Assembly: GCA_965214605.1 (NCBI GenBank)
Contig: OZ243961.1
Coordinates: 2,208,001-2,272,000, forward strand
DNA from: an uncultured Candidatus Binatia bacterium
GTDB lineage: Bacteria > Desulfobacterota > Binatia > Bin18
Direction: 5' to 3'
DNA length: 64,000 bases
Below are positions 95 through 35,342 of the stretch, piece after piece. The translations under genes were made by a program, and so were the position numbers. Within the stretch, counting starts at the first letter, position 1; every line of letters begins with the position of its first letter. Below the pieces are notes generated by a model. It was not told the DNA's origin and ran no database searches. It saw nothing but the letters and a program-made list of their open reading frames with translations.

Positions 95-445
95 TTAGTC
101 AATCGGAGAGTGTTCTGAATGGACCGGAAGTCCATGACCGAGGGCTTGCAGGCGATCAGGATGATGGCGGTCTATACCTTCATGATCGTGGCCCAGCGTG
201 GTCAGAGCGATGACGGCGAGCATTTCGCACAGCCCATCCGGCATCTGTACGGATCTGGTGTCGGCGAACTTCCGTCCCCAGCGAATAGAGGATTTTTCGA
301 GCGGCGGTACTCTCCGTGCGAGAGCGGTGGCCATAGCGAAAGCCCAGAAGTCCACCTGGCGCCGGAAGGGAGCTTGCTCCTGGCTAACAGTCCCTTTCTG
401 ATGCTGGAGCACGTACCGTTCGATGGCGTCCGTAGACCTGTTCAA
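95..445 (-). pseudogene. fragment of a small hypothetical protein, possibly partner of an SMC/DndD-like ATPase
   Basis: Protein-like core (PFRRQVDFWAFAMATALAR) directly downstream of a coiled-coil fragment; both ends look disrupted. Confidence 0.3.
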
Positions 446-830
446 GGATTGTGACGACGAGATTCGCCATGCCCTCCGCCGCCCGTTTGTCAGCAGCAGC
501 TCGTTCGTTACGTTGCCGTTGGTCGATCTGCTTCTGGTGGGAATCGATGGTGCTGAGGAGGGCTGGCTGCTGACTCTGGTTGATGGCGATGTTGCTTTGC
601 AGGCGCCCCACTTGGGTCTTCAGCGCCTCGATTTCGTCGCGGATGATCTCTATTCTCTCTGCATCGAGGGCGTCGAGTTTGTTGTCGATATCTCGCTTTT
701 CAAGCGCGAGATTGGCGATCTCCTTAGGGCTAAAATGGCGGGCGGCGAGGCGCCCCAGGGCCAGCCACGGCAAAATTTGTTGCAAACCGCTGGAGGAACA
801 TGGTAGAAGGGAGTCAAGCGATGGATTCAA
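384..830 (-). pseudogene. coiled-coil fragment, SMC/DndD-like ATPase arm
   Basis: Heptad-like stretch EKRDIDNKLDALDAERIEIIRDEIEALKTQVGRLQSNI; no Walker motifs are present, so it is a fragment. Confidence 0.35.
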
Positions 831-1009
831 TAGACGTCAAAGGCCTTCCTGAATCGCTGGCCCGGGCCGTTGAAAGCTTGGTTATTGCCTGGCGGCTGCG
901 GTTCGCGGAGCAAAACGGCGAACCGCAGCCGCCCGCGGCCTTGCCCGAGTGGAAAGGGAAGGCCGTAGGCAGCCTCAGCCGTGACGAAATCTACCGAGAG
1001 ATCGGCTGA
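800..1009 (+). CDS. small antitoxin-like protein (VapB-type)
   Basis: 69 aa, GGAGG RBS at 792-796, C-terminal SLSRDEIY motif, overlaps the start of a PIN-domain gene. Confidence 0.6.
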   Translation: MVEGSQAMDSIDVKGLPESLARAVESLVIAWRLRFAEQNGEPQPPAALPEWKGKAVGSLSRDEIYREIG

Positions 1010-3317
1010 CCTCGCTCTCTTGGACACCAACGTCCTCGTCGGTGCTCTGCTCACCGACGATTACCGCTACCCGACCGCGCGCCCTTTACTTGAGCAGGCC
1101 CACCGCAGCCAGGTGGGCTTTTGTCTTGTGCCGCAAGTGCTCGCGGAATTTTACGCGGTCATAACCAATCCGCAAAAAGTGACCGCGGTGAAAACCTCGG
1201 CGGAGGCGGTCGAGGCGGTTCGCGCCTTGTTAGCCTACCCCGGTCTTCGTCTGCTGTTTCCTCCGGTCGATAGTGTTGAGCGCTGGGCCGATCTTTTAGC
1301 CCGGCACCCGGCGACGGGCCCCCGGTTTTTCGATGTTCAGCTTGTGGCCGCGATGCTTGGAAACGATGTGCGAACTCTTTACACCTACAACGTCTCCGAC
1401 TTTGAGCCGTTCACACGCATTGCAGGCATAGAGGTCATCGACCCGCGCCGCAGCGTCCCGGGGGGTGGAAGAAAGGGAATGGCGGAAAAGCCGACAGGAC
1501 CGAGAGAGATAGGGGGAAGGCGGGGGGAGCGGACCTCAACGAGAGAATCAGGTCCGCGCCGGCCGTCAGCCGCCCCTCCTGGGTTGGTCTGCCGCCGGTT
1601 ACCGGATTCGGGGCAGTGGCAGGTTCTTCTATCCGCGGATGATGAATGCCGAATCACGGCAGTGAAGCTCGATGGGAGACTTCTGGACATGGTGAACCAC
1701 GAGTGCTGTCTGCCAGCACTCACCGGCCGCCTGACTATTGAGTTCCGGGACGAAGGGAAGAAGGAGGTATCGTTGTTCGACGATAAACCCCTGATCTTCA
1801 AACTGCCGAAGAATTGGGTCGGGGAAGGTCACAGAATCGCTGCTCTCACGAAGGGATACTTCGTTGTCATCGTGCCGAACGAGTGGGAACGAACAGGTCA
1901 TGTACCTGTTGAACCTGAAGGTTGCACGGATACCGATTTCAGAGCGCACTATTTCTTCTGGGACGGAGGAGATGCCGGGGAGGACGTCGGCGGCTTCAGG
2001 CAGCGTGACATCATCCCAACCCCATCTGGATTCGAACTGACCGGTCAGCGTGTTTTCGACAATTCCACAGACGGCGATCTGTTCTCCGGGGCTGTTCCAA
2101 ATCTAGAATTATCGTCAAACGTCGCTTGGGTCCGCGTCGGCGAGGAAAAGAAAGGGGGGTGGAAAGGCGAAAATTTCAAACCCACTGAGAAAACCCTTCC
2201 CGAAGTCTTGAATGGGCGTTACGGGCGATTTTTCATCCGGGTTTACGATTCCCAAAGACACTTGCTCGACAGCGGCGCGTTTCGATATCTGCGTGATCTC
2301 AAGCAGATTCTCGTAAATGGAGAACCGTTTGCCGAGACAACCCTTCTCGTCCCTTCCCCGACCGGACATCCATCAACCAAGGTAAGCGTTATCGGCGTTG
2401 ATGGTACAACCGTCCGCCTAATCTCGCCGCACGCAGAAGTCCAAGGCGGCGATCTCGTCATTGATCCGCGTCCAGACGCGGACTGCGTCCGCTGCACTTT
2501 GGCATCCGAGGCCGGCTGCGTCGACACCGTATTGGAGCTGCCTCGTATCTGGTGGTGTGTCGCGCGAGACGAGAGTAGCTCCGGCGAGTGGCGCGACACC
2601 CCTCTAGAGATGACGCGACAGGAATTCCGCGAACACGCCTATGCAAAGGCGACGGTCGTGCTGCGATTCCCGCGACGAATCAAGTCGGTTCAGGTCGGGT
2701 TTGATGATGAATCGTCTCAGGTGAGTCGGAAGGGAGAAAAGGACATAGCAATTCCTTTGAGGGATTTCGTCGACTGCAGGCAGATCACCCGACGATTGCA
2801 TGAAGATGCCTCGTTCAACGTCAGATGCGCCGGAGAGATAGTGACCCCCATCCGGGTGTCTTCCGACCCCGTTCCCGAGATCGTCTCTTTCACGGCGGAG
2901 CCGGCGACGGTGAACACGGGGGAGAAAGTGATCTTGCGGTGGGCCACCCGGAATACGGAGGCCGGCCACGGTGTGATCGAGCCTGAAGTCGGAGGAGTCG
3001 AATCCAGTGGGTACCATGAGGTCACGCCCCTCGAGACCGTGACCTACACGCTGAGGCTGACTGCTTGTGACATGGACGATGTGACAAAGACCGTTGTCGC
3101 GACCGTTAACCCCCCCTCGCAGCCGGATGAAAAACTAATTGCTCAGGTGAGGATAGGCAAAAGACGGAGAGACGGCAGAGGATTCAGTAACGGTGAACTT
3201 CGGGACGCAGGCTTGCGGAAGGGCGACGCGGCTCTCCGATTGATCCCCATCGACAAACGCCGACGAACCGTCCATCGGGGCAACGTGGAGAAGCTGAGGA
3301 AGATGATTCATGGCTGA
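981..3317 (+). CDS. multidomain protein: PIN (VapC-like) RNase, unknown central region, Ig-like domain, C-terminal eL13-like domain
   Basis: PIN motifs LLDTNVLV, VLAEFY, FFDVQLVA, YTYNVSDF. Ig-like PEIVSFTAEP..LRW..VTPLETVTYTL. C-terminal GRGFSNGELRDAGL..IPIDKRRRTVHRGNVEKL. Alternative in-frame ATG at 1479 preceded by AAAGGGA. Confidence 0.8.
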   Translation: MTKSTERSADLALLDTNVLVGALLTDDYRYPTARPLLEQAHRSQVGFCLVPQVLAEFYAVITNPQKVTAVKTSAEAVEAVRALLAYPGLRLLFPPVDSVERWADLLARHPATGPRFFDVQLVAAMLGNDVRTLYTYNVSDFEPFTRIAGIEVIDPRRSVPGGGRKGMAEKPTGPREIGGRRGERTSTRESGPRRPSAAPPGLVCRRLPDSGQWQVLLSADDECRITAVKLDGRLLDMVNHECCLPALTGRLTIEFRDEGKKEVSLFDDKPLIFKLPKNWVGEGHRIAALTKGYFVVIVPNEWERTGHVPVEPEGCTDTDFRAHYFFWDGGDAGEDVGGFRQRDIIPTPSGFELTGQRVFDNSTDGDLFSGAVPNLELSSNVAWVRVGEEKKGGWKGENFKPTEKTLPEVLNGRYGRFFIRVYDSQRHLLDSGAFRYLRDLKQILVNGEPFAETTLLVPSPTGHPSTKVSVIGVDGTTVRLISPHAEVQGGDLVIDPRPDADCVRCTLASEAGCVDTVLELPRIWWCVARDESSSGEWRDTPLEMTRQEFREHAYAKATVVLRFPRRIKSVQVGFDDESSQVSRKGEKDIAIPLRDFVDCRQITRRLHEDASFNVRCAGEIVTPIRVSSDPVPEIVSFTAEPATVNTGEKVILRWATRNTEAGHGVIEPEVGGVESSGYHEVTPLETVTYTLRLTACDMDDVTKTVVATVNPPSQPDEKLIAQVRIGKRRRDGRGFSNGELRDAGLRKGDAALRLIPIDKRRRTVHRGNVEKLRKMIHG

Positions 3318-6300
3318 TGCAAACGACATTCAGTCTTGGCCGGAGGAGATCCGCCAACGTTACGAGAACTACCTGAAGACCTCCTTTTTCTTCAAGAGCC
3401 CCGACCTCCGGGCCGCGTTCCGGGCCGCGTTGCAGAAAGAGGACAGTCTGCTGAAAGGCCCGTATCCCGAACCGGCGCGGGACTTCGAGAAGGGATTGAG
3501 CGCCCCGGCATTGGCGCGGGAGTGCTTCTCGGACGGGAGCAAAGGTCTCCTTCCCGCACTGATCAACGATCGGTTGTATGCGCATCAGGAACGCGCTGTC
3601 CGCGCCACGCACCTCGAAGGCCGCAATATCGTCGTCGCCACCGGTACTGCCAGCGGCAAGACCGAGAGTTTTCTCTACCCGATCCTGTTCGAGCTGTATC
3701 GCCAAAATCTTGCAGGGGAACTCGAAGACCCGGGGGTGCGGGCCGTGATCCTGTACCCGATGAACGCGCTCGCCAACGACCAACGCGAGCGCCTCGGCCA
3801 AATCCTCCAGACGTTGTGCGAGACCGCATCGGAGTTCCAACCGACGTTCGGACAGTACATCGGCCAAACACCCCAAGACGCCAGGGACGAGCGGCGCAAC
3901 GCCGCCGCGCGGGAAGAGGAACGCCTGCCCGGAGAACTCATCTTCCGCGACGAGATGCGGAGCACGCCGCCCCACATCCTGCTGACCAACTACTCGATGT
4001 TGGAATATCTGCTTATCCGCCCGGCCGACAGTCCCCTGTTCGACGGCGGCCGGGGGGCGCGCTGGCAGTTCATCGTGCTCGACGAAGCGCACCAGTACCG
4101 GGGCGCCAGGGGCATGGAGATGGGCATGTTGATCCGGCGCCTCAAGCAGCGGTTGCGCGACGGGGGACGGCAAGGTCCGTTCCGCTGCGTCGCCACCAGC
4201 GCGACCATTTCCTCCGGCGAACACGAGGACGACAAGCAAGTGGTTGCCGAGTTCGCGCAGGAACTTTTCGGAGAGCCTTTTTCGACGTCCGGCATCATTT
4301 TCAGCAAGTCGCAGACGGCCGCCGACAGGCCTCCGCGACGCTATCACGCCTTCCTGCGCGCGCTTGAGGGAGCGTTTCTCGTGCACAGGGACGGCGCGGA
4401 TGTCGTGGTGCTCAACCGCAAAAGCGAAAGTAGGAACGGGGCCATTGCGAAGCCGTTGGAAATCGCCCTGTGTCGCGAATGCGGTCAACACTACTACGTC
4501 GGCCGGGAACGGGGTAGAAAGCTGGAAGAAGCCATCCGCGATCCCAGCCATCCCGACTTCGGGGTGGAGTACTACCTACCGGTGGACGCCGGGAACGAAC
4601 TGCTGCTGTGCAGGCGCTGCGGCGTGCTCTCCAGGTCTACGCCGACATGCGATTGCGGGGCAGCGATTTCCGTCAAGAGGTGTAAATCCGACCCGGCCCA
4701 TGCCGATCAACTGAAGAAATGCGAGGCCTGCGGCTATCAGCGCGGCGGCATCGGCGACCCGGTGCAGGAGATCGTTCACGGTTCGGACGGACCCAACACT
4801 GTCATCGCCACCGCCCTGCATGAACTGCTGCCGGAAAACAGGCGCAGGGTGCTTGCGTTCGCCGACAGCCGCCAGGAGGCGGCGTTCTTCGCCTGGTACG
4901 CAGAGGACTCATACAAAAAACTGCGCGATCGCAATTTCATCCTGCGCGCCTTGACCGCGGAACCGATCAACGCGGAGGGCTTGTCCATCGACGATCTCAG
5001 AAACCGGCTGCGCAAGCAGTGGGAGGAAGCCGGCCTGGTCGGCGCGGAGCAGACCGGGGAACAGAGAGATCGGCAGGTGCTGACGTCGATCCTGCGGGAG
5101 GCGTTGACAGACGAGAAGAGATTGTCGTTGAGCGGCGTTGGCTTGGTCAAGTGGTTCGTCGGGCTTCCCGACGATTTGAATTTGCCGGATGCCATGGGGC
5201 AGCCGCCGTGGAATTTCACGGATGACGAGGCGCGCCGCCTGATCGGATACCTGTTGGACGAGTTGCGCCCGCATCGCGCCGTGAATTTGCCGGAAGGTGC
5301 CGGAACGCCTACATGGAAGGATATCTCGCCCCGGCCGCAGTGGTCTTACGCTATCGGGCGGCCTCGCGGACGAAAGCATGTCTCCCAATGGGGTGCCCCC
5401 ACATCTGCGCTCGTGACACATTTCCTTTGCCGGTTACTCTCGGACAGCGGCCTGTCCGATGACCGGAAGAAATCGGCAGCGACGGAGCTCATGGAAAAGG
5501 TGTGGCGCGCATTACAGCAACAGACCGACGCCCCCGTCCTTTCGCCCGGAAAGGCTAACGGCACCTTTCGACTGAACCCGAACTGGTTGCGGATTAAGCT
5601 CGCCGAGCTTCACGAGATCTGGGAGTGCGATACCTGCGCGGCCTTGGCCGCCTACAACGTTCGCGGCGTCTGTCCTCGAAATCGTTGCCCCGGCACCCTG
5701 AGATGCGCCAACCAAGAGCGCCTTAAGGAAAACCATTATCGACTCCTTTACGAAAACACCGACCTGCCCCCCAAGCTGAGCGCGGAAGAACATACCGCGC
5801 AGATTGACAGCGACGAGGCGCGCCGAAGGCAGGACAAATTCAAGAAGGGCCGTATACACCTTCTCAGTTCCTCCACCACATTCGAGATCGGTGTCGACCT
5901 TGGGGACTTGGAGGCCGTGTTTCTCCGCAACGTGCCGCCGGAATCGTTCAACTACGCCCAGCGCGTCGGACGGGCGGGACGACGGGAAACTCCCGGCCTG
6001 GCGCTGACCTATTGCCGCCGCAATCCGCATGACCTGTATCACTATGAGGAGCCGCTCAAGCGGGTGGTCAACGGCGGATTGCATCCGCCACGCCTGCGGA
6101 TGACGAACGAAAAAATCATCCTACGGCACATGGTCGCCACTGCCCTGTCCGCGTTCTTCGGGAAGAATGCGGTGCGCTTCGAAAAGGTGGAATGCTTCGT
6201 CGGAGAGTGGTCGAGTCCCAGCGCCGCGTCCGAACTGAAGACGTTTTGCGAGAACAACGGCGGATTGAGGGAGGCATTGTGCCAGATCGTGCCGGAGAAC

Positions 6301-7542
6301 ATGCACGGCCAAGTTGGACTCCGGGACGATATCTGGGTTGACCGTATTGCGGGACCTGGGAGCCCTTTGGCTGATATGGAAGCGGAAGCCTGCGCGGATT
6401 ACCGCGGGATGGAGAAACTCAGAGGGAAGTATTTCGATGAAGGCAAAGATAGCTATGTCAACCGTATTCGCAGACGCATGGAGACCATCGCCGCCGAATC
6501 AACTCTGAATTTCCTTTCCCGGAAAGCCGTTATCCCGAAGTACGGGTTTCCGGTGGATGTCGTCGAACTCGAGATTCGTTCTGGAGACGGCAATCCACCT
6601 GGCGTTGCGCTCCAGCGGGACTTGTCCCAGGCCATCGCCGAATACGCGCCCGGCGGCAAGGTGGTGGCCAACAAACAAGAATGGGAATCCTGCGGCGTGA
6701 AGGCGCTTGCGGGGAAGACATGGCCTGTCCGGCGTTACCAATACGACGACGCGCGGAATTTTACGCAACGGCCTGAAGATGATCAGTCCGGATCGTCCGG
6801 GGAATGGAAGAAGTATCTCATCCCGGCGTTCGGTTTTGTAACGCCGCTTTCCAGGAACCGCCCCTCGGAGCCGCATGGACGCGCGCGGCGCTGGTATACG
6901 ACCCGGCCGTTTTTCTGCGGCTTCGGAAAGGATGCACGGCCTGAAACGAAGACCGTCCTGGGCGTACAAGTGACCAAAGCCTTGCCTGGCACCTTGGTCA
7001 TCCTCTGCGAGGGCAGAAAGAGAGGCGGTTTCTATATCTGCCGTTACTGCGGGGCCCACATGACGGAACCGAAAGCCAAGCACAAGTCCCCCTTGGACTT
7101 CGAGTGCAAGGGCACCTTGGAACGATTCTCGCTCGGTCACGAACTGGTCACGGACGCGGTGCGCCTGCAGTTTCCGCAACTGTGCGGCCAGTGGGACGCT
7201 TACTCCGTTGCTTATGCCGTCCTGCTCGGCGCGGCGGAGACGCTGGATGTCCCGGATACGGACCTGAATGTGACGATAACCCGCGGTGACAATCCGGGCG
7301 ACGCCGCGATCGTGCTTTATGACAACGTGCCGGGGGGCGCCGGACTTGTGGCGCAACTGGAGCGGGAGGGTGTCTTCGGTGAAGTACTCCGCAGCGCACG
7401 AGAGCGGGTGCGGGGCAATTGCGGCTGCGACTCAAGCTGTTATGGGTGCTTGCGCAGTTACCGCAATCAGTTTGCCCACTCGCATCTGCACCGCAAGCAA
7501 GCGTTGGATGTCCTGAGTTCGAATAACCGAAACGAGCCCTGA
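3310..7542 (+). CDS. DEAD/DEAH-box SF2 helicase with C-terminal DUF1998 Zn domain (Druantia DruE-like)
   Basis: Motifs ATGTASGKTE, YPMNALANDQ, TNYSMLEYLL, LDEAH, TSAT, FEIGVDLG, QRVGRAGRR; several CxxC pairs; YDNVPGGAG..CGCDSSCYGCLRSYRNQ. 8-nt overlap with the upstream gene. Confidence 0.93.
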   Translation: MADANDIQSWPEEIRQRYENYLKTSFFFKSPDLRAAFRAALQKEDSLLKGPYPEPARDFEKGLSAPALARECFSDGSKGLLPALINDRLYAHQERAVRATHLEGRNIVVATGTASGKTESFLYPILFELYRQNLAGELEDPGVRAVILYPMNALANDQRERLGQILQTLCETASEFQPTFGQYIGQTPQDARDERRNAAAREEERLPGELIFRDEMRSTPPHILLTNYSMLEYLLIRPADSPLFDGGRGARWQFIVLDEAHQYRGARGMEMGMLIRRLKQRLRDGGRQGPFRCVATSATISSGEHEDDKQVVAEFAQELFGEPFSTSGIIFSKSQTAADRPPRRYHAFLRALEGAFLVHRDGADVVVLNRKSESRNGAIAKPLEIALCRECGQHYYVGRERGRKLEEAIRDPSHPDFGVEYYLPVDAGNELLLCRRCGVLSRSTPTCDCGAAISVKRCKSDPAHADQLKKCEACGYQRGGIGDPVQEIVHGSDGPNTVIATALHELLPENRRRVLAFADSRQEAAFFAWYAEDSYKKLRDRNFILRALTAEPINAEGLSIDDLRNRLRKQWEEAGLVGAEQTGEQRDRQVLTSILREALTDEKRLSLSGVGLVKWFVGLPDDLNLPDAMGQPPWNFTDDEARRLIGYLLDELRPHRAVNLPEGAGTPTWKDISPRPQWSYAIGRPRGRKHVSQWGAPTSALVTHFLCRLLSDSGLSDDRKKSAATELMEKVWRALQQQTDAPVLSPGKANGTFRLNPNWLRIKLAELHEIWECDTCAALAAYNVRGVCPRNRCPGTLRCANQERLKENHYRLLYENTDLPPKLSAEEHTAQIDSDEARRRQDKFKKGRIHLLSSSTTFEIGVDLGDLEAVFLRNVPPESFNYAQRVGRAGRRETPGLALTYCRRNPHDLYHYEEPLKRVVNGGLHPPRLRMTNEKIILRHMVATALSAFFGKNAVRFEKVECFVGEWSSPSAASELKTFCENNGGLREALCQIVPENMHGQVGLRDDIWVDRIAGPGSPLADMEAEACADYRGMEKLRGKYFDEGKDSYVNRIRRRMETIAAESTLNFLSRKAVIPKYGFPVDVVELEIRSGDGNPPGVALQRDLSQAIAEYAPGGKVVANKQEWESCGVKALAGKTWPVRRYQYDDARNFTQRPEDDQSGSSGEWKKYLIPAFGFVTPLSRNRPSEPHGRARRWYTTRPFFCGFGKDARPETKTVLGVQVTKALPGTLVILCEGRKRGGFYICRYCGAHMTEPKAKHKSPLDFECKGTLERFSLGHELVTDAVRLQFPQLCGQWDAYSVAYAVLLGAAETLDVPDTDLNVTITRGDNPGDAAIVLYDNVPGGAGLVAQLEREGVFGEVLRSARERVRGNCGCDSSCYGCLRSYRNQFAHSHLHRKQALDVLSSNNRNEP

Positions 7543-8285
7543 CCCCCGGGCCGTCGCCGACAGCCGTCAACACTTCGTCCAGGTGCCGGTAGTCCCCATC
7601 GGGTCAATTCCAACAGAGGTAGGTAAACTCTCACAGCAATTTGCTTGCTGACGGCTTTTTGATACCGCGTTTTTTTCATCCAATTGTGAAGATTAGCTTC
7701 GGTGGTGTTGTAACGCTCAGAGATAAATTTCTGCGTTGAGCCGTTCGCCAGTAGCGCTTCGATTTCAGGGCGAAACGCATCCAGTTTGCTTTTCCCCGGC
7801 CCTTTAGGGCGACCGAGTTGCATGCCGGCCGCTTTTTTGACTCGGAGCGCTTCGATGGTGCGCTGCGAGATCAGATCACGCTCAATTTCGGCGGCCATCG
7901 AGAAAGCCATCGCAACGACCTGGCTGTGAATGCTCCGATCAAGCTGCCAGTTGCCCTTGACGGCATAACCCGCAATACCGCGCTCTAACGCGATGGACAA
8001 GATCTCCATACACTCCAGCATGCTGCGCCCAAGGCGTGACAGCTCACTGACGACAATCGCATCGCCTTTCTGACACACTTCCAGCAGTTGAGCGATTTTT
8101 CGCTTTTTCCACGACACCCGGTCTGAGACCGCCTCTTCGACAAATTCCACGCGGCCCAAATCGTGGGTATTGGCCAGCTTCAGGATATCGGCCTTGTTCT
8201 CTGCTACATCTTGATCGGCAGTTGACACCCCCAAGTACCCCATCGCCTTGGCTTGTGATGGAGTTTTTTTGGTGCGTCGGGTCAT
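7467..8285 (-). pseudogene. serine resolvase of a Tn3-family element, degenerate
   Basis: YLGVSTADQD (R to G in the YxRVST motif), ELSRLGRS, AEIERDLISQRT, LGRPKG, C-terminal HTH that runs on past its expected end. Confidence 0.8.
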
Positions 8286-8421
8286 AATTCGAAGCAAACC
8301 ACTATTTTCGTATTAAACAATAATAGTGGTTGTCTTTTTATCAATGAGTTTGGTTGAAGATATCCGCTCCTCAAAACGTTCGTTTTCCCGATAATTTTAG
8401 CCGCCGGCGCAAGGGGATGCT

Positions 8422-8960
8422 ATGCCGAGGATGAAAATACTCAGCACCATCGAACAAGAGACCTTTGACACACCGCCGCTGTTCAATAGCGCCCAGCGCA
8501 AGCAGTATTTTGATGCCTCGCTGCAAATCCAACAGATTGCCAATGGGTTACGCACACCGATCAATCGGTTGTATTTTCTACTGAGCCGCGATTATTTCAA
8601 AGCGACCAAGCGCTTTTTTCCAGCGCGGACATTTCACTCACGCGATATTGAATATGTCGCCTCCCGAGACGGGCTTGCGTTTGTTGAACTCGCCCTCAGC
8701 CAAGCAGAAAAACAGGAACAAGAAACCGCCGAGGGCTGCAAACGATTGATCAAAAACTGTATCACCTGCTGGAATTATCTGTACCTGAGTCAGAAACTGA
8801 CCGAAGCCAAAGAGGAGGAAAAACGACAAATCCTACTTCACGCCATCGCTAACGGTTCCGTGGTGTCCTGACAGCACTTCAACCTGCTTGGCGAGTCCGA
8901 TTTCTCGGAAGAAAAACTGCAGGATTCCGTCGGAATTAAGCCCCCAAAGTTGACCACTTC
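8422..8960 (+). pseudogene. Tn3-family transposase, internally deleted
   Basis: N-terminus (MPRMKILS..PPLFNSAQRKQYF) joined directly to C-terminus (RLIKNCITCWNYLYLSQKL..SVVS*QHFNLLGE); stop at 8869-8871; divergent from the resolvase. Confidence 0.85.
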
Positions 8961-9150
8961 AATCAGCATGAATCTTGGGAGGCGTAAAAATAAGTCGGGG
9001 CACCATCGAAAGCGGCCATTTGCCGAAGCAGTGCGGACTCGCAATGGCGACAGCGGTCTGCTTCGGGCCCACTTCAGACCTCATTGATAGTCGCAGCATC
9101 CTTTGCGACGGGTGGTGGGAGAGCTACAGGGGAATATTTGGCGGTAGGGG

Positions 9151-11300: not shown

Positions 11301-11389
11301 CGCTGCAAGGAGGTCCCTATGCAAGACTTCACGGACAAAGTAGTGGGGAGAACAGCGGCGCGAGAATGCTCCCCTGAAGCGCCTGGTTG

Positions 11390-11470
11390 CTCGGAAAAAA
11401 AGCGGCCGGATGCCGTCGGAATCAAGCCCCCAAAATTGCCGAGTGAGATCCGCTTGAATGTTGGGGAGCG
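11390..11470 (+). mobile_element. second diverged copy of the Tn3 tnpA 3' end
   Basis: CTCGGAAAAAAAGCGGCCGGATGCCGTCGGAATCAAGCCCCCAAAATTG aligns with 8904-8952 (peptide SE.K..D.VGIKPPKL). Confidence 0.7.
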
Positions 11471-11794
11471 GACAATGATCAAAAACGCTTTTCCGGCTTC
11501 TCCTCGCGGAAGTGCCTGATGTTCCGGCATGGGTTCGAGCCGGCCGGCCTCATGCTCTCTATCTCCGCCAGGGTGAACATGCGCGACGGCGTTCGCTCCT
11601 TTTCCTAGCACCCTGCCGGGACCGCCGCGCCGAGAGACGGATCAGCTGGAAAAATGACTCATGGGAAAAGCAGGGATGGCCAGCAACAGGGACAAGTCGG
11701 ACCGCCGGGAAGCACGCCATTGACTCCGCTTCGGCTGAATCCTGAACTCAAGACCCTGTGTGAGGAGGTATGAGCGCTACGGAAGACGACTCAC

Positions 11795-32117: not shown

Positions 32118-35100
32118 TTACGTATCGACCCAGCGCTCCAGGAGTGTTCTGGCCTGGTGCAGGTCGGGGGTTTCAAGTCCGGGATCAAACCACCTATATA
32201 CCTCAGCGACCAGCTGCCGCGCCTCAGCCGCCCTGTCCTGCGTTTGCCACAACCGACCAAGACTCATCGCTGCCCGTAGCTCCAAAGACTTGGCCGCCTG
32301 ACGGCGAGCAATATCGATCGCGCGCTGAAAACATGCTTCGGCGGTGGACGTATGAAGGCCGCGGTGGGTGACCTTTCGTCCTTCGATTTCCTGTGTCAGC
32401 AGCCCCTCCCCTTTGCGCCGGTACAGCTCGGCCTCATAAAAGCGTTCCCCGTGTTCCTCAACCGTCCGTAAGGCTTCGTCCAGACTATCTATCCCGTCGG
32501 CCACACGTCCGTTGCGTTGCTGGACCTCTGCCAATAGAGACAGAAAATACGGACGCAGCAGCTCCGAGCCGGTCGCACGCCAGGCGGCCAGCCCCTTTTG
32601 TAACCGCGCGAATCCGTCGCCGGTCGGCGTTTGCATTGCTGCTGCCCAGCTCTGAAACATCTGCCCCATTGCTAACCAGTGGGGAAAGCCCTGTTCCTGG
32701 GACACGGCTATGGCGGCCGTAGCTGCCTCATTGCTGGCCGACAGATCCCCCCGAATCTGGTGCAGCATAGCCGTCCAATTCTGGGCCGCAGCAAGACTGT
32801 GGAGGTGGGCGGTGCGTAACGCCTCTTCACACTGTCCTAGGGCCTGGTCAGGATAGCCGAGCAGCCACAGGGTTAGGGCATTGTACAATAGGCACACTAC
32901 CTTGGGGTCAGAGCCATAGCGAAAGGCCAGAGTGTGGTGGGTGTCGGGCTGGTAGAGCGCAATCGCGTGTTCAAGATGCTCGCGGGCGAGGCCAAACTCC
33001 CCTAGCCAGAATAAAGTGTTGCCGCACGCCCGGTGGACTTCGATAAGCGAGGCCTGATCGGGCAGGCTGGAGGTCATCGACAGCAGCTGCTCGCCGAGTT
33101 CTCGGGCGGTTTGGAGTTCTCCGCGCATCTCAGAGACGACCCACAGCCCGCGCAGTGCGGAAAACGCGCGGGACGGCTGCCCAATCTGGTCTCCCAGCTC
33201 TTGCGCCCGGACATAGGTGTCTTTGACCTCTTGGTCAGCATAGCCCTTGGTCGCAATCAGCCCAGGTCCACGCGTGGTGTGAAACTCCAACTCCTGCTCG
33301 GCCCGCTCGGCTCCCTCGGGCAGGACTTTGAGCAGGGCCAACCCTTGTCCCAAGTGTTCGAGCGCTTCGACGTAGGCTGAGCGTTCAAATGCGCGTTGAC
33401 CAGCGCGTTTCCAGTAGCTGAGCGCCTCTTCCCGTAAACCCGCCTGGGTATAATGGTGGGCGATCAGTTCGGGCTGTGTCTCGACAGTCTCAGGAAAATG
33501 TTTCTCTAAAACACGGGCAATATGTGCGTGCAACTGGAGGCGGTCGCTTTTGAGCAGGGATTGATACGCCGCGTCCTGGATCAGGGCGTGTTTAAAGACC
33601 CAGCGGGTGTGCGGCGGCTCTCCCCTTTGGGATATAATCTCTGCGGCCCCCAGCTGTTCCAAGCCGTGCTGTAGCGCCTGGTCGTCGAGAGACCACACCA
33701 TCCGGATCACCTCGTGCGGAAAGGCGCGGCCCAGTGCGGCCCCCAGCTGGGCAACTTCTTTGGCCGGGCCGAGCCGATCAAGGCGGGCCATCAACAAGTC
33801 GCGCAGTGTCGTCGGAATAGTCAGTTTTGGCAGAGGGGACTCGGCAGACGAGGACTCGGTCTCCAGCACCATCTTGGTGAGTTCTTCTATAAATAGCGGA
33901 ATGCCGTCGGTCTTATCCAGAACCTGTTGGATAATGTCGGACGCTAAGCTCTGGTCGCCCGTCAGCTCGGCGATCAGCTGGGCGGCCTGGTGGCGTCCGA
34001 GGCGGGCCAGACTGAGATGTTTCATGTGCGGGCGCATGGCCCAGGCTGGCATAAAATCAGACCGAAAGGTCAAGACGACCAGGATACGAGCGCTGGGAGC
34101 CCTATCAATCAGGACTTGGAGCAGGTCTAAGGTCGAGGGGTCGGCCCACTGGATATCCTCCCACACGACCAGCAGAGGGCCTTGGGTGGCCTGATGCAGC
34201 AACCCGCTAACAATGGCCTCTTGGGTGCGCTGCTTTTGGCGCCGAGGGCTTCCCTGCCAGGCCGTGTAGCGATCATCGAGTGGGATGGACAGTAGCGCCG
34301 CGAGCAGAGGGATGACCTCTTGGCTACCAAAAGGGTGACTGGCCAACAAGGTTTCCAGCCTGGAGAGTTTATCGGCAGCCCGCTCCTCCCGCCATGCCTG
34401 GACCTGGCGCTGGAAATACTCGATCTGGGGATAGAAGGCACTGTGTTGGAAGTGGTCTGAGCATCGAAACTCGATCTCGCTACCGCCCTCAGATGGGAGG
34501 CGTTCCTTGAGTTCCTGCACCAAGCGAGATTTTCCGATTCCTGGTTCCCCGGTCATGAGTACCACTTGACCGGAACCGTTTTTGGCCTTGTACCAACTGT
34601 CGAGCAGTACCTCCAGAGTCTCCTGTCGGCCAACCATGGGCGACAGACCGCGCCGAACCGCGACCCGAAAGCGGTCCCATACCCCACTTTCGCGGATGAC
34701 TTGATACACCGCAATTGGCTTAGACAGACCGCGTAGCGGACGTTCGCCAAGCGCCCGCCACTCACACAACCCCTCAACCAGGCGGGCCGTTGCCCCGCTG
34801 ATAACAACTGTATCAGGATGGGCCAGATTTTGCAGACGCGCCGCAATATTCGGGGTCTCGCCCAGCGCCAGCCGTTCGTGCCGACCGCCGCCTCCCATCT
34901 CACCGACCACCACCTGGCCGGTATGAATACCGACCCGCACCCGTACCGGCTGGGCGGCCTGCTTGAGCAGGGGCGAAGTTTGAACTGTCTCAACGATACG
35001 CAGGCCGGATCGCACGGCTTGGATCGCGTCGTCCTCGTGGGCGACTGGATGACCAAAATAGACCAGCAGCCCATCACCTAGGTATTGGGCAATGTAGCCG

Positions 35101-35342
35101 TCAAAGGCGACGACCACTTCTGCGCAAAGCTGCTGGTAGGTTCGGACAACATCGCGCAGCTCCTCCGGGTCCAGCTGTTCGGCAAGGCGGGTTGAACCCA
35201 CCACATCGCAGAACAGCACGGTCAGCTGACGCCGCTCGGCCGCAGGGCCGACCGTCCCGGACACGGGAGACAGGGCGGTTCCGCATTCATCACAAAACTT
35301 GGCCGCCGAGCGATTTCGAGTTCCGCAGCGGAGACAGCGCAT
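32118..35342 (-). CDS. adenylate/guanylate cyclase with zinc ribbon, AAA/STAND ATPase and TPR domains
   Basis: CLRC..CDEC, ERRQLTVLFCDVVGST, YLGDG, GETPNIAARLQ, GEPGIGKSRL, FKHALIQDAAYQSLL, C-terminal TPRs. Confidence 0.93.
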   Translation of the reverse strand: MRCLRCGTRNRSAAKFCDECGTALSPVSGTVGPAAERRQLTVLFCDVVGSTRLAEQLDPEELRDVVRTYQQLCAEVVVAFDGYIAQYLGDGLLVYFGHPVAHEDDAIQAVRSGLRIVETVQTSPLLKQAAQPVRVRVGIHTGQVVVGEMGGGGRHERLALGETPNIAARLQNLAHPDTVVISGATARLVEGLCEWRALGERPLRGLSKPIAVYQVIRESGVWDRFRVAVRRGLSPMVGRQETLEVLLDSWYKAKNGSGQVVLMTGEPGIGKSRLVQELKERLPSEGGSEIEFRCSDHFQHSAFYPQIEYFQRQVQAWREERAADKLSRLETLLASHPFGSQEVIPLLAALLSIPLDDRYTAWQGSPRRQKQRTQEAIVSGLLHQATQGPLLVVWEDIQWADPSTLDLLQVLIDRAPSARILVVLTFRSDFMPAWAMRPHMKHLSLARLGRHQAAQLIAELTGDQSLASDIIQQVLDKTDGIPLFIEELTKMVLETESSSAESPLPKLTIPTTLRDLLMARLDRLGPAKEVAQLGAALGRAFPHEVIRMVWSLDDQALQHGLEQLGAAEIISQRGEPPHTRWVFKHALIQDAAYQSLLKSDRLQLHAHIARVLEKHFPETVETQPELIAHHYTQAGLREEALSYWKRAGQRAFERSAYVEALEHLGQGLALLKVLPEGAERAEQELEFHTTRGPGLIATKGYADQEVKDTYVRAQELGDQIGQPSRAFSALRGLWVVSEMRGELQTARELGEQLLSMTSSLPDQASLIEVHRACGNTLFWLGEFGLAREHLEHAIALYQPDTHHTLAFRYGSDPKVVCLLYNALTLWLLGYPDQALGQCEEALRTAHLHSLAAAQNWTAMLHQIRGDLSASNEAATAAIAVSQEQGFPHWLAMGQMFQSWAAAMQTPTGDGFARLQKGLAAWRATGSELLRPYFLSLLAEVQQRNGRVADGIDSLDEALRTVEEHGERFYEAELYRRKGEGLLTQEIEGRKVTHRGLHTSTAEACFQRAIDIARRQAAKSLELRAAMSLGRLWQTQDRAAEARQLVAEVYRWFDPGLETPDLHQARTLLERWVDT

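What the first reader, a model, noticed from the sequence alone, without database searches (positions are those of the whole stretch)
981..7542. Candidate undescribed defence system: eL13-domain partner protein coupled to a DUF1998 SF2 helicase
Seen: two long intact genes overlap by 8 nt (ATGGCTGA) while most neighbours are decayed. Gene 2 has all SF2 motifs, Zn fingers and DUF1998. Gene 1 reads PIN, unknown region, Ig-like, eL13-like. Known: single-chain helicase-DUF1998 proteins are the core of Druantia (DruE) and relate to DISARM DrmA/DrmB and DpdJ; I know of no described partner carrying an eL13 domain. Inference: a two-gene Druantia-like anti-phage system in which the basic eL13-like module binds RNA or DNA and acts as sensor or adaptor for the helicase.
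Basis: partly seen in the sequence, partly recalled or inferred. Interest (0 to 1): 0.9.

Follow-up and report, generated by a model that had tools for sequence, protein, structure and literature searches.

The report
New partner protein for Druantia-type helicase
A compact helicase of the kind found in the Druantia anti-phage system always travels with an undescribed upstream protein built of beta-sandwich domains and a ribosomal-protein-like basic tail, so this is probably a new two-gene variant of that defence system, not yet tested.

Summary
ORFs 981-3317 (778 aa) and 3310-7542 (1410 aa) are intact and overlap by ATGGCTGA.

Gene 2 is a DruE-family YprA helicase (PADLOC DruE1, E 2e-152). 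It is colinear with solved E. coli DruE but ends at the Zn-binding MZB domain, so it has no nuclease part.

Gene 1 is two things read in one frame. Residues 1-166 are an ordinary VapC/PIN toxin, and standalone relatives of 146-162 aa reach 75% identity. Residues 167-778 belong to a large unnamed family: 1258 representatives at E<=1e-30. It matches no PADLOC model and shows no similarity to DruH.

The family's helicase lies directly downstream in 50 of 56 related loci from many phyla. The same 8-nt junction occurs in 32 of 37 loci, and no third gene is conserved.

The predicted partner is a chain of beta-sandwich/Ig-like domains. Its roughly 50-aa eL13-like tail is real (E 4e-9), but other basic tails replace it in some loci.

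Verdict: probably a new Druantia-like variant. Defence activity and mechanism are inferred, not shown. The window's own copy lacks the family's usual N-terminal helix and linker.

The parts
800..1009 (+). 69-aa ORF overlapping the PIN ORF start by 29 nt; candidate VapB-type antitoxin by position only
   Evidence: ORF; no Pfam match at E<=0.01
981..1478 (+). VapC-type PIN toxin, complete, lacking its own stop codon and running in frame into the partner gene
   Evidence: Pfam PIN 13-137, TIGR00028 res 12-155. Standalone homologs of 146-162 aa reach 75% identity and end 2-13 residues after 'IEVIDP'. Junction identical in contigs of runs X1, X2, X3 and X4.
1479..3317 (+). Partner protein proper (612 aa from M167): the conserved family member
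   Evidence: Homologs cover 88-100% of residues 167-778. 1258 representatives at E<=1e-30. AlphaFold pLDDT 84.7, pTM 0.68.
1500..1523 (+). Conserved basic motif P-R-x-I-G-G-R-R that precedes the folded part
   Evidence: alignment A3, columns 11-18
1581..2858 (+). Array of about five beta-sandwich domains; the most conserved core of the family
   Evidence: Models: (sub-model pLDDT 88.9, pTM 0.83). Foldseek finds only generic tandem-Ig matches, TM 0.10-0.18 for the whole model and at most 0.25 for the sub-model.
2877..3110 (+). Ig-like domain, absent from some family members
   Evidence: Model strands 467-544. Deleted in L022, L023, L032 and L035.
3159..3308 (+). eL13-like basic C-terminal tail (G-[KR]-G-F-S...D-x-R-R-R..H)
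   Evidence: NF008914 E 1.4e-12. Family profile against PDB eL13, E 4.4e-9. Invariant G568 F569 S570 E573 D592 R594 R595 H599 in A3.
3310..3317 (+). ATGGCTGA start/stop overlap (translational coupling junction)
   Evidence: The same 8-nt ATGNNTGA overlap occurs in 32 of 37 loci evaluated.
3310..7542 (+). Compact DruE-family YprA helicase without a nuclease domain
   Evidence: PADLOC DruE1 E 2.3e-152. PDB 9tu7 E 2e-68, colinear up to its residue 1717 of 2108.
3580..4215 (+). RecA1 / DEAD domain with Walker A and DEAH
4471..4731 (+). Cluster of invariant Cys pairs (Zn-binding module inserted between the RecA folds)
   Evidence: The position matches the zinc-binding module described for the Druantia/ARMADA lineage in PMC12458937, section 7.
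5737..5985 (+). Helicase_C (RecA2) with motif VI
7210..7452 (+). MZB / DUF1998 four-Cys domain; the protein ends 29 residues later
7467..8297 (-). Context: serine recombinase (resolvase)
   Evidence: Pfam Resolvase E 3e-22
8422..8871 (+). Context: Tn3-family transposase remnant (pieces of the N- and C-terminal parts joined in 149 aa)
   Evidence: Pfam DUF4158 and DDE_Tnp_Tn3

Best explanation
The locus is a self-contained, horizontally mobile two-gene module of the Druantia kind. Gene 2 is a compact, nuclease-less DruE-family (YprA-like) SF2 helicase with intact ATPase motifs and Zn-binding modules. It is translationally coupled to an upstream partner of an undescribed family.

In its usual form the partner has these parts, in order:
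- an N-terminal basic-hydrophobic helix;
- a long acidic disordered linker;
- a PRxIGGRR motif;
- a chain of about five beta-sandwich domains;
- often one further Ig-like domain;
- a short basic tail, most often homologous to the core of archaeal/eukaryotic ribosomal protein eL13.

Proposed mechanism, inferred by analogy with DruH-DruE. The fast-evolving beta-sandwich partner is the specificity or sensor subunit. It recognises a phage component through its Ig-like domains and holds nucleic acid with its basic tail. It thereby licenses or positions the helicase, which loads on exposed single-stranded DNA of the invader and unwinds 3'-to-5', blocking replication without a nuclease of its own.

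Shown here: the homologies, the architecture, the strict linkage and co-inheritance, and the patchy distribution. Inferred: anti-phage function, the sensor role, nucleic-acid binding by the tail, and physical contact between the two proteins.

In this genome a vapBC-type cassette sits where the partner's N-terminal helix and linker should be. VapC is fused in frame to the partner, so this particular copy may be altered or impaired.
For: Helicase:
- PADLOC DruE1 E 2.3e-152, against DpdJ 6e-22 and DrmA 1e-17.
- PDB DruE-type chain 9tu7 E 2e-68, against YprA 6znp 1e-20.
- Colinear RecA1/RecA2/MZB matches, ending where the longer chain goes on for about 390 residues.
- All motifs invariant in 32 family helicases.

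Partner:
- 331 homologs at E<=1e-3 among 8000 candidates.
- 13885 / 5107 / 1258 representatives at E<=1e-3 / 1e-10 / 1e-30. The weaker ones include generic Ig proteins.
- No Pfam family covers residues 167-726.

Linkage:
- The helicase is directly downstream on the same strand in 41 of 44 genome loci and in 9 of 12 metagenome loci.
- Of the six misses, four are cut by a contig end (L024, L063, L064, L065), one is a weak Ig-only hit (L044), and one is a real exception (L004).
- The 8-nt overlap occurs in 32 of 37 loci.
- No other ORF family recurs in more than 4 loci.
- Partner and helicase distances co-vary: Mantel r 0.86, 0 of 2000 permutations as high, 25 loci. Mean pairwise identity is 46% for the partner and 70% for the helicase.

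Accessory or horizontally transferred character:
- The partner was found in none of 40 relatives searched, including 0 of 7 genomes of the same genus.
- Loci lie in MAGs titled as Thermodesulfobacteriota, Limisphaerales, Latescibacterota, Bryobacterales, Rhodothermales, Pseudomonadales, Binatia, Dehalococcoidia, Oligoflexales, Gemmatimonadota and others.

Defence context:
- In L004 the helicase slot is filled, with the same ATGNNTGA junction, by NsnA/NsnB/NsnC.
- Some flanks carry type I REase, SoFic, PglX-like and Eco57I-like genes.
- The window has a PIN toxin gene, a resolvase, Tn3 remnants and an Eco57I-type methylase nearby.

Analogy from papers:
- The PLD domains were dispensable in the III-A experiments, and III-B has a compact DruE lacking them (10.64898/2026.05.13.724758, passages).
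Against: - No phenotype, expression or binding data exist for any member.
- Defence-island enrichment is modest. Among 124 flanking ORFs scanned, 115 different Pfam families appear, many of them housekeeping (NAD synthase, tRNA synthetases). The commonest PADLOC families have only 2 members each. No background control was run.
- No relative was found on viral contigs.
- Neither protein of the family carries a recognisable nuclease or other effector domain, so how infection would be stopped is open.
- The eL13-like tail is not universal.
- The window's copy lacks the N-terminal helix and linker seen in most full-length homologs (113 of 172 against 12 of 172 control windows). It is fused to VapC, so it may not be functional.
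- Several related loci are broken: L021, L029 and L042.
- Bell et al. may already place this helicase clade in their tree.
Confidence: 0.6

Rival explanations
1. It is ordinary Druantia type III (subtype III-B, compact DruE without PLD domains). On this reading the partner is a strongly diverged and shortened DruH.
For: - The layout is the same: two genes, partner first, overlapping start. M. smegmatis DruH/DruE overlap by 17 bp (PMC13316683, passage).
- III-B is described as a compact DruE lacking PLDs plus DruH.
- DruH contains three Ig-like domains, and the partner here is a chain of Ig-like/beta-sandwich domains.
Against: - The partner hits 0 PADLOC families at E<=0.1, while E. coli DruH hits 10 DruH models.
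- hhalign of the family profile against E. coli DruH gives probability 0.4%.
- Described DruH proteins are 1119 and 1132 aa, against a 612-aa conserved part here.
- No eL13-like tail, N-terminal helix or acidic linker is mentioned for DruH in the passages read.
- The upstream 1069-aa protein of a Clostridium butyricum DruE-like helicase is also unrelated to the partner (probability 0.2%). It matches no PADLOC model either.
Confidence: 0.12
2. The pair is a DNA-repair or housekeeping helicase module of the MrfA/YprA kind, or serves the maintenance of a mobile element, and is not immunity.
For: - YprA-family helicases include repair enzymes (PMC12458937, section 5).
- Many flanks are housekeeping genes.
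- The family has no nuclease.
- There are no viral-contig hits.
Against: - The helicase is far closer to DruE than to YprA: E 2e-68 against 1e-20 in PDB, and 508 bits to the PADLOC DruE1 model.
- It carries the Cys-rich insertions between the RecA folds that Bell et al. describe for the Druantia/ARMADA lineage.
- It was found in none of 40 relatives, but it is 59-76% identical across phyla. That is the pattern of an accessory, transferred gene.
- Its slot is taken by NsnABC in L004.
Confidence: 0.1
3. In this particular genome the module is a decaying remnant. The vapBC insertion removed the partner's N-terminal helix and linker and fused VapC to it, so the locus is no longer a working system whatever the family does.
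For: - The family's N-terminal helix and roughly 170-aa linker are missing here.
- VapC has no stop codon of its own.
- Next to it lie Tn3 transposase fragments.
Against: - Both long frames are fully open, and every conserved motif of the helicase is intact.
- An ATG (1479) with a purine-rich stretch before it lies 6 codons upstream of the conserved PRxIGGRR motif, so a 612-aa partner could still be made.
- Some homologs are also short at the N-terminus, for example P0119 (630 aa) and P0012 (549 aa).
Confidence: 0.3

Closest known systems
Druantia type III, DruH-DruE (III-A of E. coli; III-B with compact DruE)
   Same: - It has two genes, with the partner upstream and an overlapping start.
- The helicase is of the DruE family, with DEAD, Helicase_C, Cys-rich insertions and MZB/DUF1998.
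- Like III-B, the helicase has no PLD nuclease part.
- The partner contains Ig-like domains, as DruH does.
   Different: - The partner shows no sequence similarity to DruH and its conserved part is about half DruH's size.
- The partner has an eL13-like or other basic tail, plus an N-terminal helix and acidic linker.
- The helicase is at most 31% identical to any DruE-like helicase in the plasmid collection, where all 346 records fall under 60%. It is 1410 aa, against 1667-2108 aa for described DruE proteins.
Druantia types I, II and IV (DruABCDE, DruMFGE, DruE+DruF+DruL)
   Same: The core helicase is of the DruE family. PADLOC DruE1, DruE2 and DruE4 models all match at E<=1e-109.
   Different: None of the accessory proteins is present. 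The partner matches no PADLOC model, and no third gene is conserved. Type IV is as described in PMC8565338 (passage).
DISARM DrmA/DrmB, Dpd DpdJ, ARMADA/BRIGADE/TALON (YprA-family defence helicases)
   Same: They share the SF2 helicase with DUF1998/MZB. Bell et al. describe the general logic of a YprA helicase with variable partners.
   Different: - Matches are much weaker: DrmA 1e-17, DpdJ 6e-22.
- No BrxHII-like or PglX-like gene is conserved next to the pair, as ARMADA requires. A few flanks have PglX-like genes, 2 of 124 ORFs.
Ribosomal protein eL13 (Pfam PF01294; archaeal L13e, NF008914)
   Same: About 50 residues of the tail align with the conserved core of eL13, G-R-G-F-S...D-x-R-R-R (E 4.4e-9 to 9e6q).
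   Different: - The match is a tail on a 600-800-aa bacterial protein, not a ribosomal protein.
- Its scores are below the curated cut-offs: 23.5 against 24.9 bits, and 47 against 96 bits.
- It is replaced by other tails in 7 of 50 loci.
VapBC toxin-antitoxin (PIN domain toxin)
   Same: Residues 1-166 are a complete PIN toxin, 75% identical to a standalone 162-aa protein. A small ORF overlaps its start.
   Different: It has no stop codon of its own and is fused in frame to the partner. The putative antitoxin matches no Pfam family.
Menshen (NsnABC), seen in locus L004 only. The name Menshen for NsnABC is recalled; PADLOC gives only Nsn names.
   Same: It occupies the helicase's place directly after the partner gene, with the same ATGNNTGA junction.
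   Different: It is a different three-gene system and occurs in 1 of 51 loci that have downstream sequence. It may be a cassette swap and not a second effector for the partner.

Membership tests
DruE (Druantia core helicase, YprA family) | SF2 helicase with DEAD/DEAH, Helicase_C and C-terminal MZB/DUF1998, matching DruE profiles | tested here: met
   Pfam. PADLOC DruE1 E 2.3e-152 and six more DruE models. PDB 9tu7 E 2e-68.
DruE (Druantia core helicase, YprA family) | Cys-rich zinc-binding insertions between and within the RecA folds (lineage feature in PMC12458937, section 7) | tested here: inconclusive
   Invariant Cys pairs at 388-474 and 773-793 lie in the expected place. The folds (BrxA-like, beta-barrel, MarR-like) were not modelled because the protein exceeds the 1200-aa limit.
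DruE type III-A | C-terminal PLD-like nuclease domains after MZB | tested here: not met
   The protein ends 29 residues after MZB. 9tu7 continues for about 390 residues beyond the aligned MZB.
Druantia type III system | DruH (YjiT/STY4851 family) encoded next to DruE | tested here: not met
   The partner hits 0 PADLOC families, while the control E. coli DruH hits 10 DruH models. hhalign probability 0.4%.
Druantia types I, II, IV | DruA-D, DruM/F/G or DruF/DruL genes beside DruE | tested here: not met
   The partner has no PADLOC match. No further conserved neighbour was found in 44 loci plus the window.
Anti-phage defence system (any) | Protection against phage when expressed | not testable with these tools
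Anti-phage defence system (any) | Patchy, horizontally transferred distribution and defence-gene neighbourhood | tested here: inconclusive
   Patchiness is met: found in 0 of 40 relatives but in many phyla. The neighbourhood is only partly defence-like, and no control was run.
Ribosomal protein eL13 (PF01294 / NF008914) | Match above the curated cut-off over the family's length | tested here: not met
   23.5 bits against 24.9, covering profile positions 56-98 of 180. 47 bits against 96, covering 26-75 of 83. The homology of the ~50-aa core itself is significant.
VapC / PIN toxin | PIN domain over its full length, standalone size about 130-160 aa, paired with an upstream antitoxin | tested here: inconclusive
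   The domain is met (Pfam 24.6 against 23.6 bits; TIGR00028 61 against 73.6 bits). Standalone relatives exist. Here it has no stop of its own, and the upstream 69-aa ORF has no family match.

The most novel reading that the evidence does not exclude
The partner family is a new kind of infection sensor, made of three elements:
- an N-terminal basic-hydrophobic helix that may hold it at the membrane;
- an acidic linker of about 170 residues that acts as a tether;
- a fast-evolving Ig-like array that recognises phage proteins.

At its end it carries a nucleic-acid-binding module taken over from an archaeal ribosomal protein (eL13). Together these would switch on a nuclease-free DruE-type helicase.

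The sensor may also be modular. In one locus (L004) it is coupled through the same junction to NsnABC instead of the helicase. That would make it a portable trigger for unrelated effectors.
Probability: 0.15. Interest if true: 0.8.

Novelty: new variant of a known kind. Interest (0 to 1): 0.62.

Why it matters
Work posted in 2026 holds that DruE is the constant motor of Druantia and that subtype-specific partners decide how it is switched on. This locus adds a large partner family with no name in any library searched, seen mostly in metagenomes (1258 representatives at E<=1e-30).

The family shows no detectable similarity to DruH. It works with the smallest DruE-type helicase seen here, one that has no nuclease.

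If the pair protects against phages, three things follow:
- It would be a minimal system for asking how a DruE-type helicase stops infection without cutting DNA.
- It would show that different Ig-rich partners have been recruited to the same motor more than once.
- It would be a case of a ribosomal-protein RNA-binding module of archaeal/eukaryotic type reused in bacterial immunity.

It would also fill a gap in defence annotation for uncultured lineages, where PADLOC finds only an orphan DruE.

Tried and rejected
Complex prediction. Complex prediction with helicase residues 1-384 (alignment A6) and the whole partner (A3) gave no support (score 0.00 against a mark of 0.32), and the controls were not run. 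This is no evidence either way. Only about a quarter of the helicase fitted under the 1000-residue limit.

Expression. The look-up of sequencing runs listed no RNA holder, so nothing can be said about expression.

ESM Atlas gave no usable hit for the partner.

Fold searches:
- The whole partner model matched only generic tandem-Ig proteins (TM 0.10-0.18).
- The conserved N-terminal core (residues 30-300, pLDDT 88.9) had no match at E<=0.001.
- No functional fold could therefore be named.

Other searches and ideas:
- A viral-contig scan found no relative.
- A search for short proteins like the eL13 tail gave only 3 hits: two of 67 and 81 aa carrying only PF01294, and one HhH+L13e protein of 132 aa. 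That is too few to trace the tail's origin.
- Promoter-like and terminator-like sites were no more frequent than in shuffled sequence.
- Repeats gave no element boundaries.
- I considered that the PIN might be the system's missing nuclease effector. I rejected this because no homolog has it and it is a complete standalone-type VapC.
- I considered that the partner is a DruH. I rejected this.
- The upstream 19 kb (L069) holds nitrile hydratase, a glutathionylspermidine-synthase-like gene and a histidine kinase, with no tRNA. The accessory stretch therefore begins close to the window's start.

- Supplementary files of papers were closed. The supplementary tables of PMC12458937 may already list this helicase clade and its neighbours.

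Rows dropped. For the flank scans I selected 151 ORFs: the two nearest non-overlapping ORFs of at least 120 aa on each side of the pair in 41 loci. I dropped 26 ORFs shorter than 160 aa and one more to meet the 50,000-residue limit, leaving 124.
Full report
**Observation**

The two frames are as described. ORF 981..3317 (+, GTG, 778 aa) and ORF 3310..7542 (+, ATG, 1410 aa) are both open. They overlap by ATGGCTGA at 3310-3317.

Gene 2 carries DEAD (91-302), Helicase_C (810-892) and MZB/DUF1998 (1301-1381). In an alignment of 32 family helicases the Walker A, DEAH, SAT and motif VI residues are invariant. So are three clusters of Cys pairs and the four MZB cysteines.

Gene 1 has three recognisable parts:
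- A PIN domain at residues 13-137 (Pfam 24.6 bits against cut-off 23.6; TIGR00028 E 1e-16).
- An eL13-like stretch at 727-776 (NF008914 E 1.4e-12; Pfam L13e 23.5 bits, just under its cut-off of 24.9).
- An Ig-like domain before that stretch, seen in the model.

**The PIN is a separate gene read through**

Standalone PIN toxins of 146-162 aa are up to 75% identical to residues 1-166 (75 hits). They end 2-13 residues after the motif IEVIDP. In the window the frame instead continues for 11 codons to the ATG at 1479.

A 69-aa ORF (800..1009) overlaps the PIN start in the way of an antitoxin, but it matches no Pfam family.

No homolog of the partner has a PIN:
- None of the 120 listed rows carries PF01850 in the precomputed Pfam column.
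- Nine long homologs (950-1173 aa) scanned with Pfam show only L13e or nothing.

The junction is not an assembly slip in the record. Contigs of public runs X1 and X2 (each spanning 800-3678), X4 (1088-3678) and X3 (800-1756) cross it without a single difference. All four runs are of one study, which may be the source of the record.

**The partner family**

Residues 167-778 find 331 proteins at E<=1e-3 among 8000 candidates. The 120 listed are 46-61% identical over 80-100% of the region.

A profile of 30 members finds 13885 / 5107 / 1258 representatives at E<=1e-3 / 1e-10 / 1e-30 in the 50%-identity library. The weak end includes generic Ig-repeat proteins.

No library names the family:
- No Pfam or NCBIfam family covers residues 167-726.
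- PADLOC gives 0 families at E<=0.1.
- The Atlas gave nothing usable.

Full-length members have a recurring architecture:
- *N-terminal helix.* A basic-hydrophobic helix is present in 113 of 172 long homologs by a strict rule, against 12 of 172 control windows inside the folded part.
- *Linker.* A linker of mean 172 residues follows, rich in S, P, E and D.
- *Motif.* The conserved motif PRxIGGRR comes next.
- *Folded part.* The folded part follows the motif.

The window's copy has VapC where the helix and linker should be.

**Structure**

The AlphaFold model of the 612-aa part is confident (pLDDT 84.7, pTM 0.68). It is all-beta except for three C-terminal helices.

Foldseek against the PDB returns only generic tandem-Ig proteins with TM 0.10-0.18. 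A separate model of the most conserved part (residues 30-300; pLDDT 88.9, pTM 0.83) has no PDB match at E<=0.001.

The partner is therefore a chain of beta-sandwich domains with no nameable enzymatic fold.

**The eL13-like tail**

The family profile matches eL13 chains in the PDB over about 50 residues. The best is 9e6q at E 4.4e-9, and 70 sequences match at E<=1. In alignment A3 the residues G568, F569, S570, E573, D592, R594, R595 and H599 are invariant.

The tail is kept in members that have lost the Ig-like domain (L022, L023, L032, L035). It is not universal, however. Among the 50 loci that hold the pair:
- 37 align through the tail, and 2 more show it on inspection (L032, L038).
- 3 have a degenerate version (L039, L040, L067).
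- 7 have other tails (L027, L028, L031, L033, L034, L036, L041). These are mostly rich in K and R, and some are 99-210 residues long.
- 1 was not evaluated (L029).

The common denominator is a basic C-terminus. From this I infer nucleic-acid binding, but nothing here shows it.

**The helicase**

PADLOC places gene 2 with DruE: DruE1 E 2.3e-152 and six further DruE models at E<=1e-101. This is far above SngC, BrxH, DpdJ and DrmA (E 1e-17 to 2e-22).

In the PDB it matches a 2108-aa 'DEAD/DEAH box helicase' (9tu7, E 2e-68) and a 1970-aa helicase (9wae). Both score well above YprA (6znp, E 1e-20).

The match to 9tu7 is colinear:
- RecA1: 90-321 aligns with 98-318.
- RecA2: 825-962 aligns with 1076-1213.
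- MZB: 1274-1403 aligns with 1584-1717.

It stops about 390 residues before the end of that chain, so gene 2 lacks the C-terminal nuclease part. That fits what the literature says of compact forms. Bell et al. write that Druantia III-like helicases most frequently have no nuclease domain at all (PMC12458937, section 8 passage). [quoted passage not shown]

In the plasmid collection no helicase is closer than 31% identity. All 346 matching records fall in the band under 60%.

**Linkage**

A scan of one genome per species returned 44 loci. The helicase lies directly downstream on the same strand in 41 of them. The three misses are:
- L024, which is cut by the contig end.
- L044, which is a weak Ig-only hit (E 7e-5).
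- L004, which is a real exception and is described under 'Distribution and context'.

A metagenome scan returned 12 loci, 9 of them with the helicase. The other three end at the contig end.

Further evidence that the two genes form a unit:
- The junction is the same 8-nt ATGNNTGA overlap in 32 of 37 loci evaluated. Two more (L013, L017) contain ATGCCTGA, but my script chose an upstream TTG as the start.
- All-against-all clustering of ORFs found no other family in more than 4 loci outside the two genes.
- Pairwise identities of partner and helicase co-vary across 25 loci (Mantel r 0.86; 0 of 2000 permutations as high). The partner diverges faster: mean 46% against 70%.
- Linked genes share ancestry, so this co-variation shows co-inheritance as a unit. 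It does not show co-adaptation.

**Distribution and context**

The partner was found in none of 40 related genomes searched. That includes 0 of 7 of the same genus and 0 of 24 of the same family. The related loci lie in MAGs whose titles name at least ten different phyla or classes. Their helicases are 59-76% identical to the window's. This is the pattern of a transferred accessory module.

Flanks are heterogeneous. Among the 124 flanking ORFs scanned, 115 Pfam families appear:
- Some are restriction or defence-type: ResIII in 3 ORFs, and HSDR_N, Eco57I, Fic and Patatin in 2 each.
- Many are housekeeping genes.
- The commonest PADLOC families (type I REase, SoFic, PDC-S04, RmrA, MTase_II, PglX, PDC-S24) each have 2 members.
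- I ran no background control, so I call the defence-island signal moderate.

The most telling context is L004. There a full-length partner with an eL13-like tail is followed, through ATGACTGA, by NsnA (E 6e-145), NsnB (5e-104) and NsnC (8e-50) in place of the helicase.

In the window the accessory stretch runs from about the window's start to about 21 kb. It is bounded upstream by nitrile hydratase, a glutathionylspermidine-synthase-like gene and a histidine kinase. Downstream it is bounded by CO-dehydrogenase-type genes. It contains the PIN toxin gene, the pair, a resolvase, a Tn3 transposase remnant, a TetR gene and an Eco57I-type methylase.

**Comparison with DruH**

E. coli DruH was taken from a plasmid carrying Zorya II, Druantia III and an SNF2/methylase pair. 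It is annotated 'STY4851/ECs_5259 family protein' and is 1119 aa long. It hits 10 PADLOC DruH models, whereas the partner hits none.

Profile-sequence comparison of the partner family with E. coli DruH gives probability 0.4%. With the 1069-aa protein upstream of a Clostridium butyricum DruE-like helicase it gives 0.2%. That protein itself hits no PADLOC model. DruE-like helicases therefore come with several unrelated upstream partners.

Wu et al. report three Ig-like domains in DruH and evidence that it senses late phage proteins. They also hold that subtype-specific partners decide how the DruE core is activated (10.64898/2026.05.12.724681, abstract and passages). Another preprint finds that DruH binds ssDNA (10.64898/2026.05.12.722862, passages). 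The M. smegmatis study reports that a DruH-DruE interaction is needed for defence (PMC13316683, abstract and passages).

These papers give the working analogy for the mechanism I propose. They are not evidence about this family.

**Is it in print?**

None of these searches turned up this partner:
- Druantia with L13e: 0 papers.
- L13e, DUF1998, eL13-like, Ribosomal_L13e or L13e-like: 115 papers hold at least one term. None of the 25 listed holds both an L13e term and DUF1998.
- Druantia-like, DruE-like, 'Druantia type V' or 'Druantia IV': 4 papers, none describing this partner.
- The main text of PMC12458937 contains no occurrence of L13, ribosomal, Ig-like or immunoglobulin.

The supplements of PMC12458937 were closed and may list the clade.

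**Verdict**

It needs three corrections:
- The PIN is a fused neighbouring toxin gene.
- The eL13-like part is a common but replaceable tail.
- The window's own copy is N-terminally altered.

Function and mechanism remain inferred. I rate the finding a new variant of a known kind and of good but not exceptional interest.

Noticed in passing
own genome, G000:C1:2272148-2277304 (-) and C1:2756942-2760721 (+); loci L049-L054: The genome holds two more long YprA/DruE-like helicase frames, of 1847 aa and 2103 aa. The first lies just past the window's 3' end. This organism therefore has three helicases of this family.
   Followed up: no
L004:7425-13149: A full-length partner gene is followed by NsnA, NsnB and NsnC instead of the helicase, through the same ATGNNTGA overlap. 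It is either a cassette swap at a fixed junction or an alternative effector.
   Followed up: partly
partner homologs P0004-P0260 (first 45 residues and linker): Most full-length homologs begin with a basic-hydrophobic helix of the type (L)RKIIxxxxxWxRRLW, followed by an S/P/E/D-rich linker of about 170 aa. The helix might be a membrane-binding or docking element.
   Followed up: partly
window 8901-8989 and 11387-11475: An 89-nt direct repeat (76% identity) lies inside the low-GC stretch that has Tn3 remnants and few long ORFs.
   Followed up: no
window 384-830 (-): A 148-aa ORF on the minus strand just upstream of the vapB-like ORF has only weak coiled-coil-type Pfam matches. It overlaps plus-strand ORFs of similar length, so it is unclear which of them is real.
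   Followed up: no
window 3650-3700, 4062-4089, 4841-4910: Short-read contigs of runs X1-X4 break at these places inside the helicase, with loose ends that run into other sequence. This suggests that other variants of this helicase live in the same community.
   Followed up: no
window 32118-35342 (-): A 1074-aa protein combines a zinc ribbon, an adenylate/guanylate cyclase domain, an AAA_16 ATPase and TPR repeats. It is a STAND-like signalling architecture and is not linked to the finding.
   Followed up: no
L010:9826-15219: The helicase match is split into two pieces spanning about 5.4 kb instead of 4.2 kb. This suggests an insertion of about 1.2 kb inside the gene.
   Followed up: no
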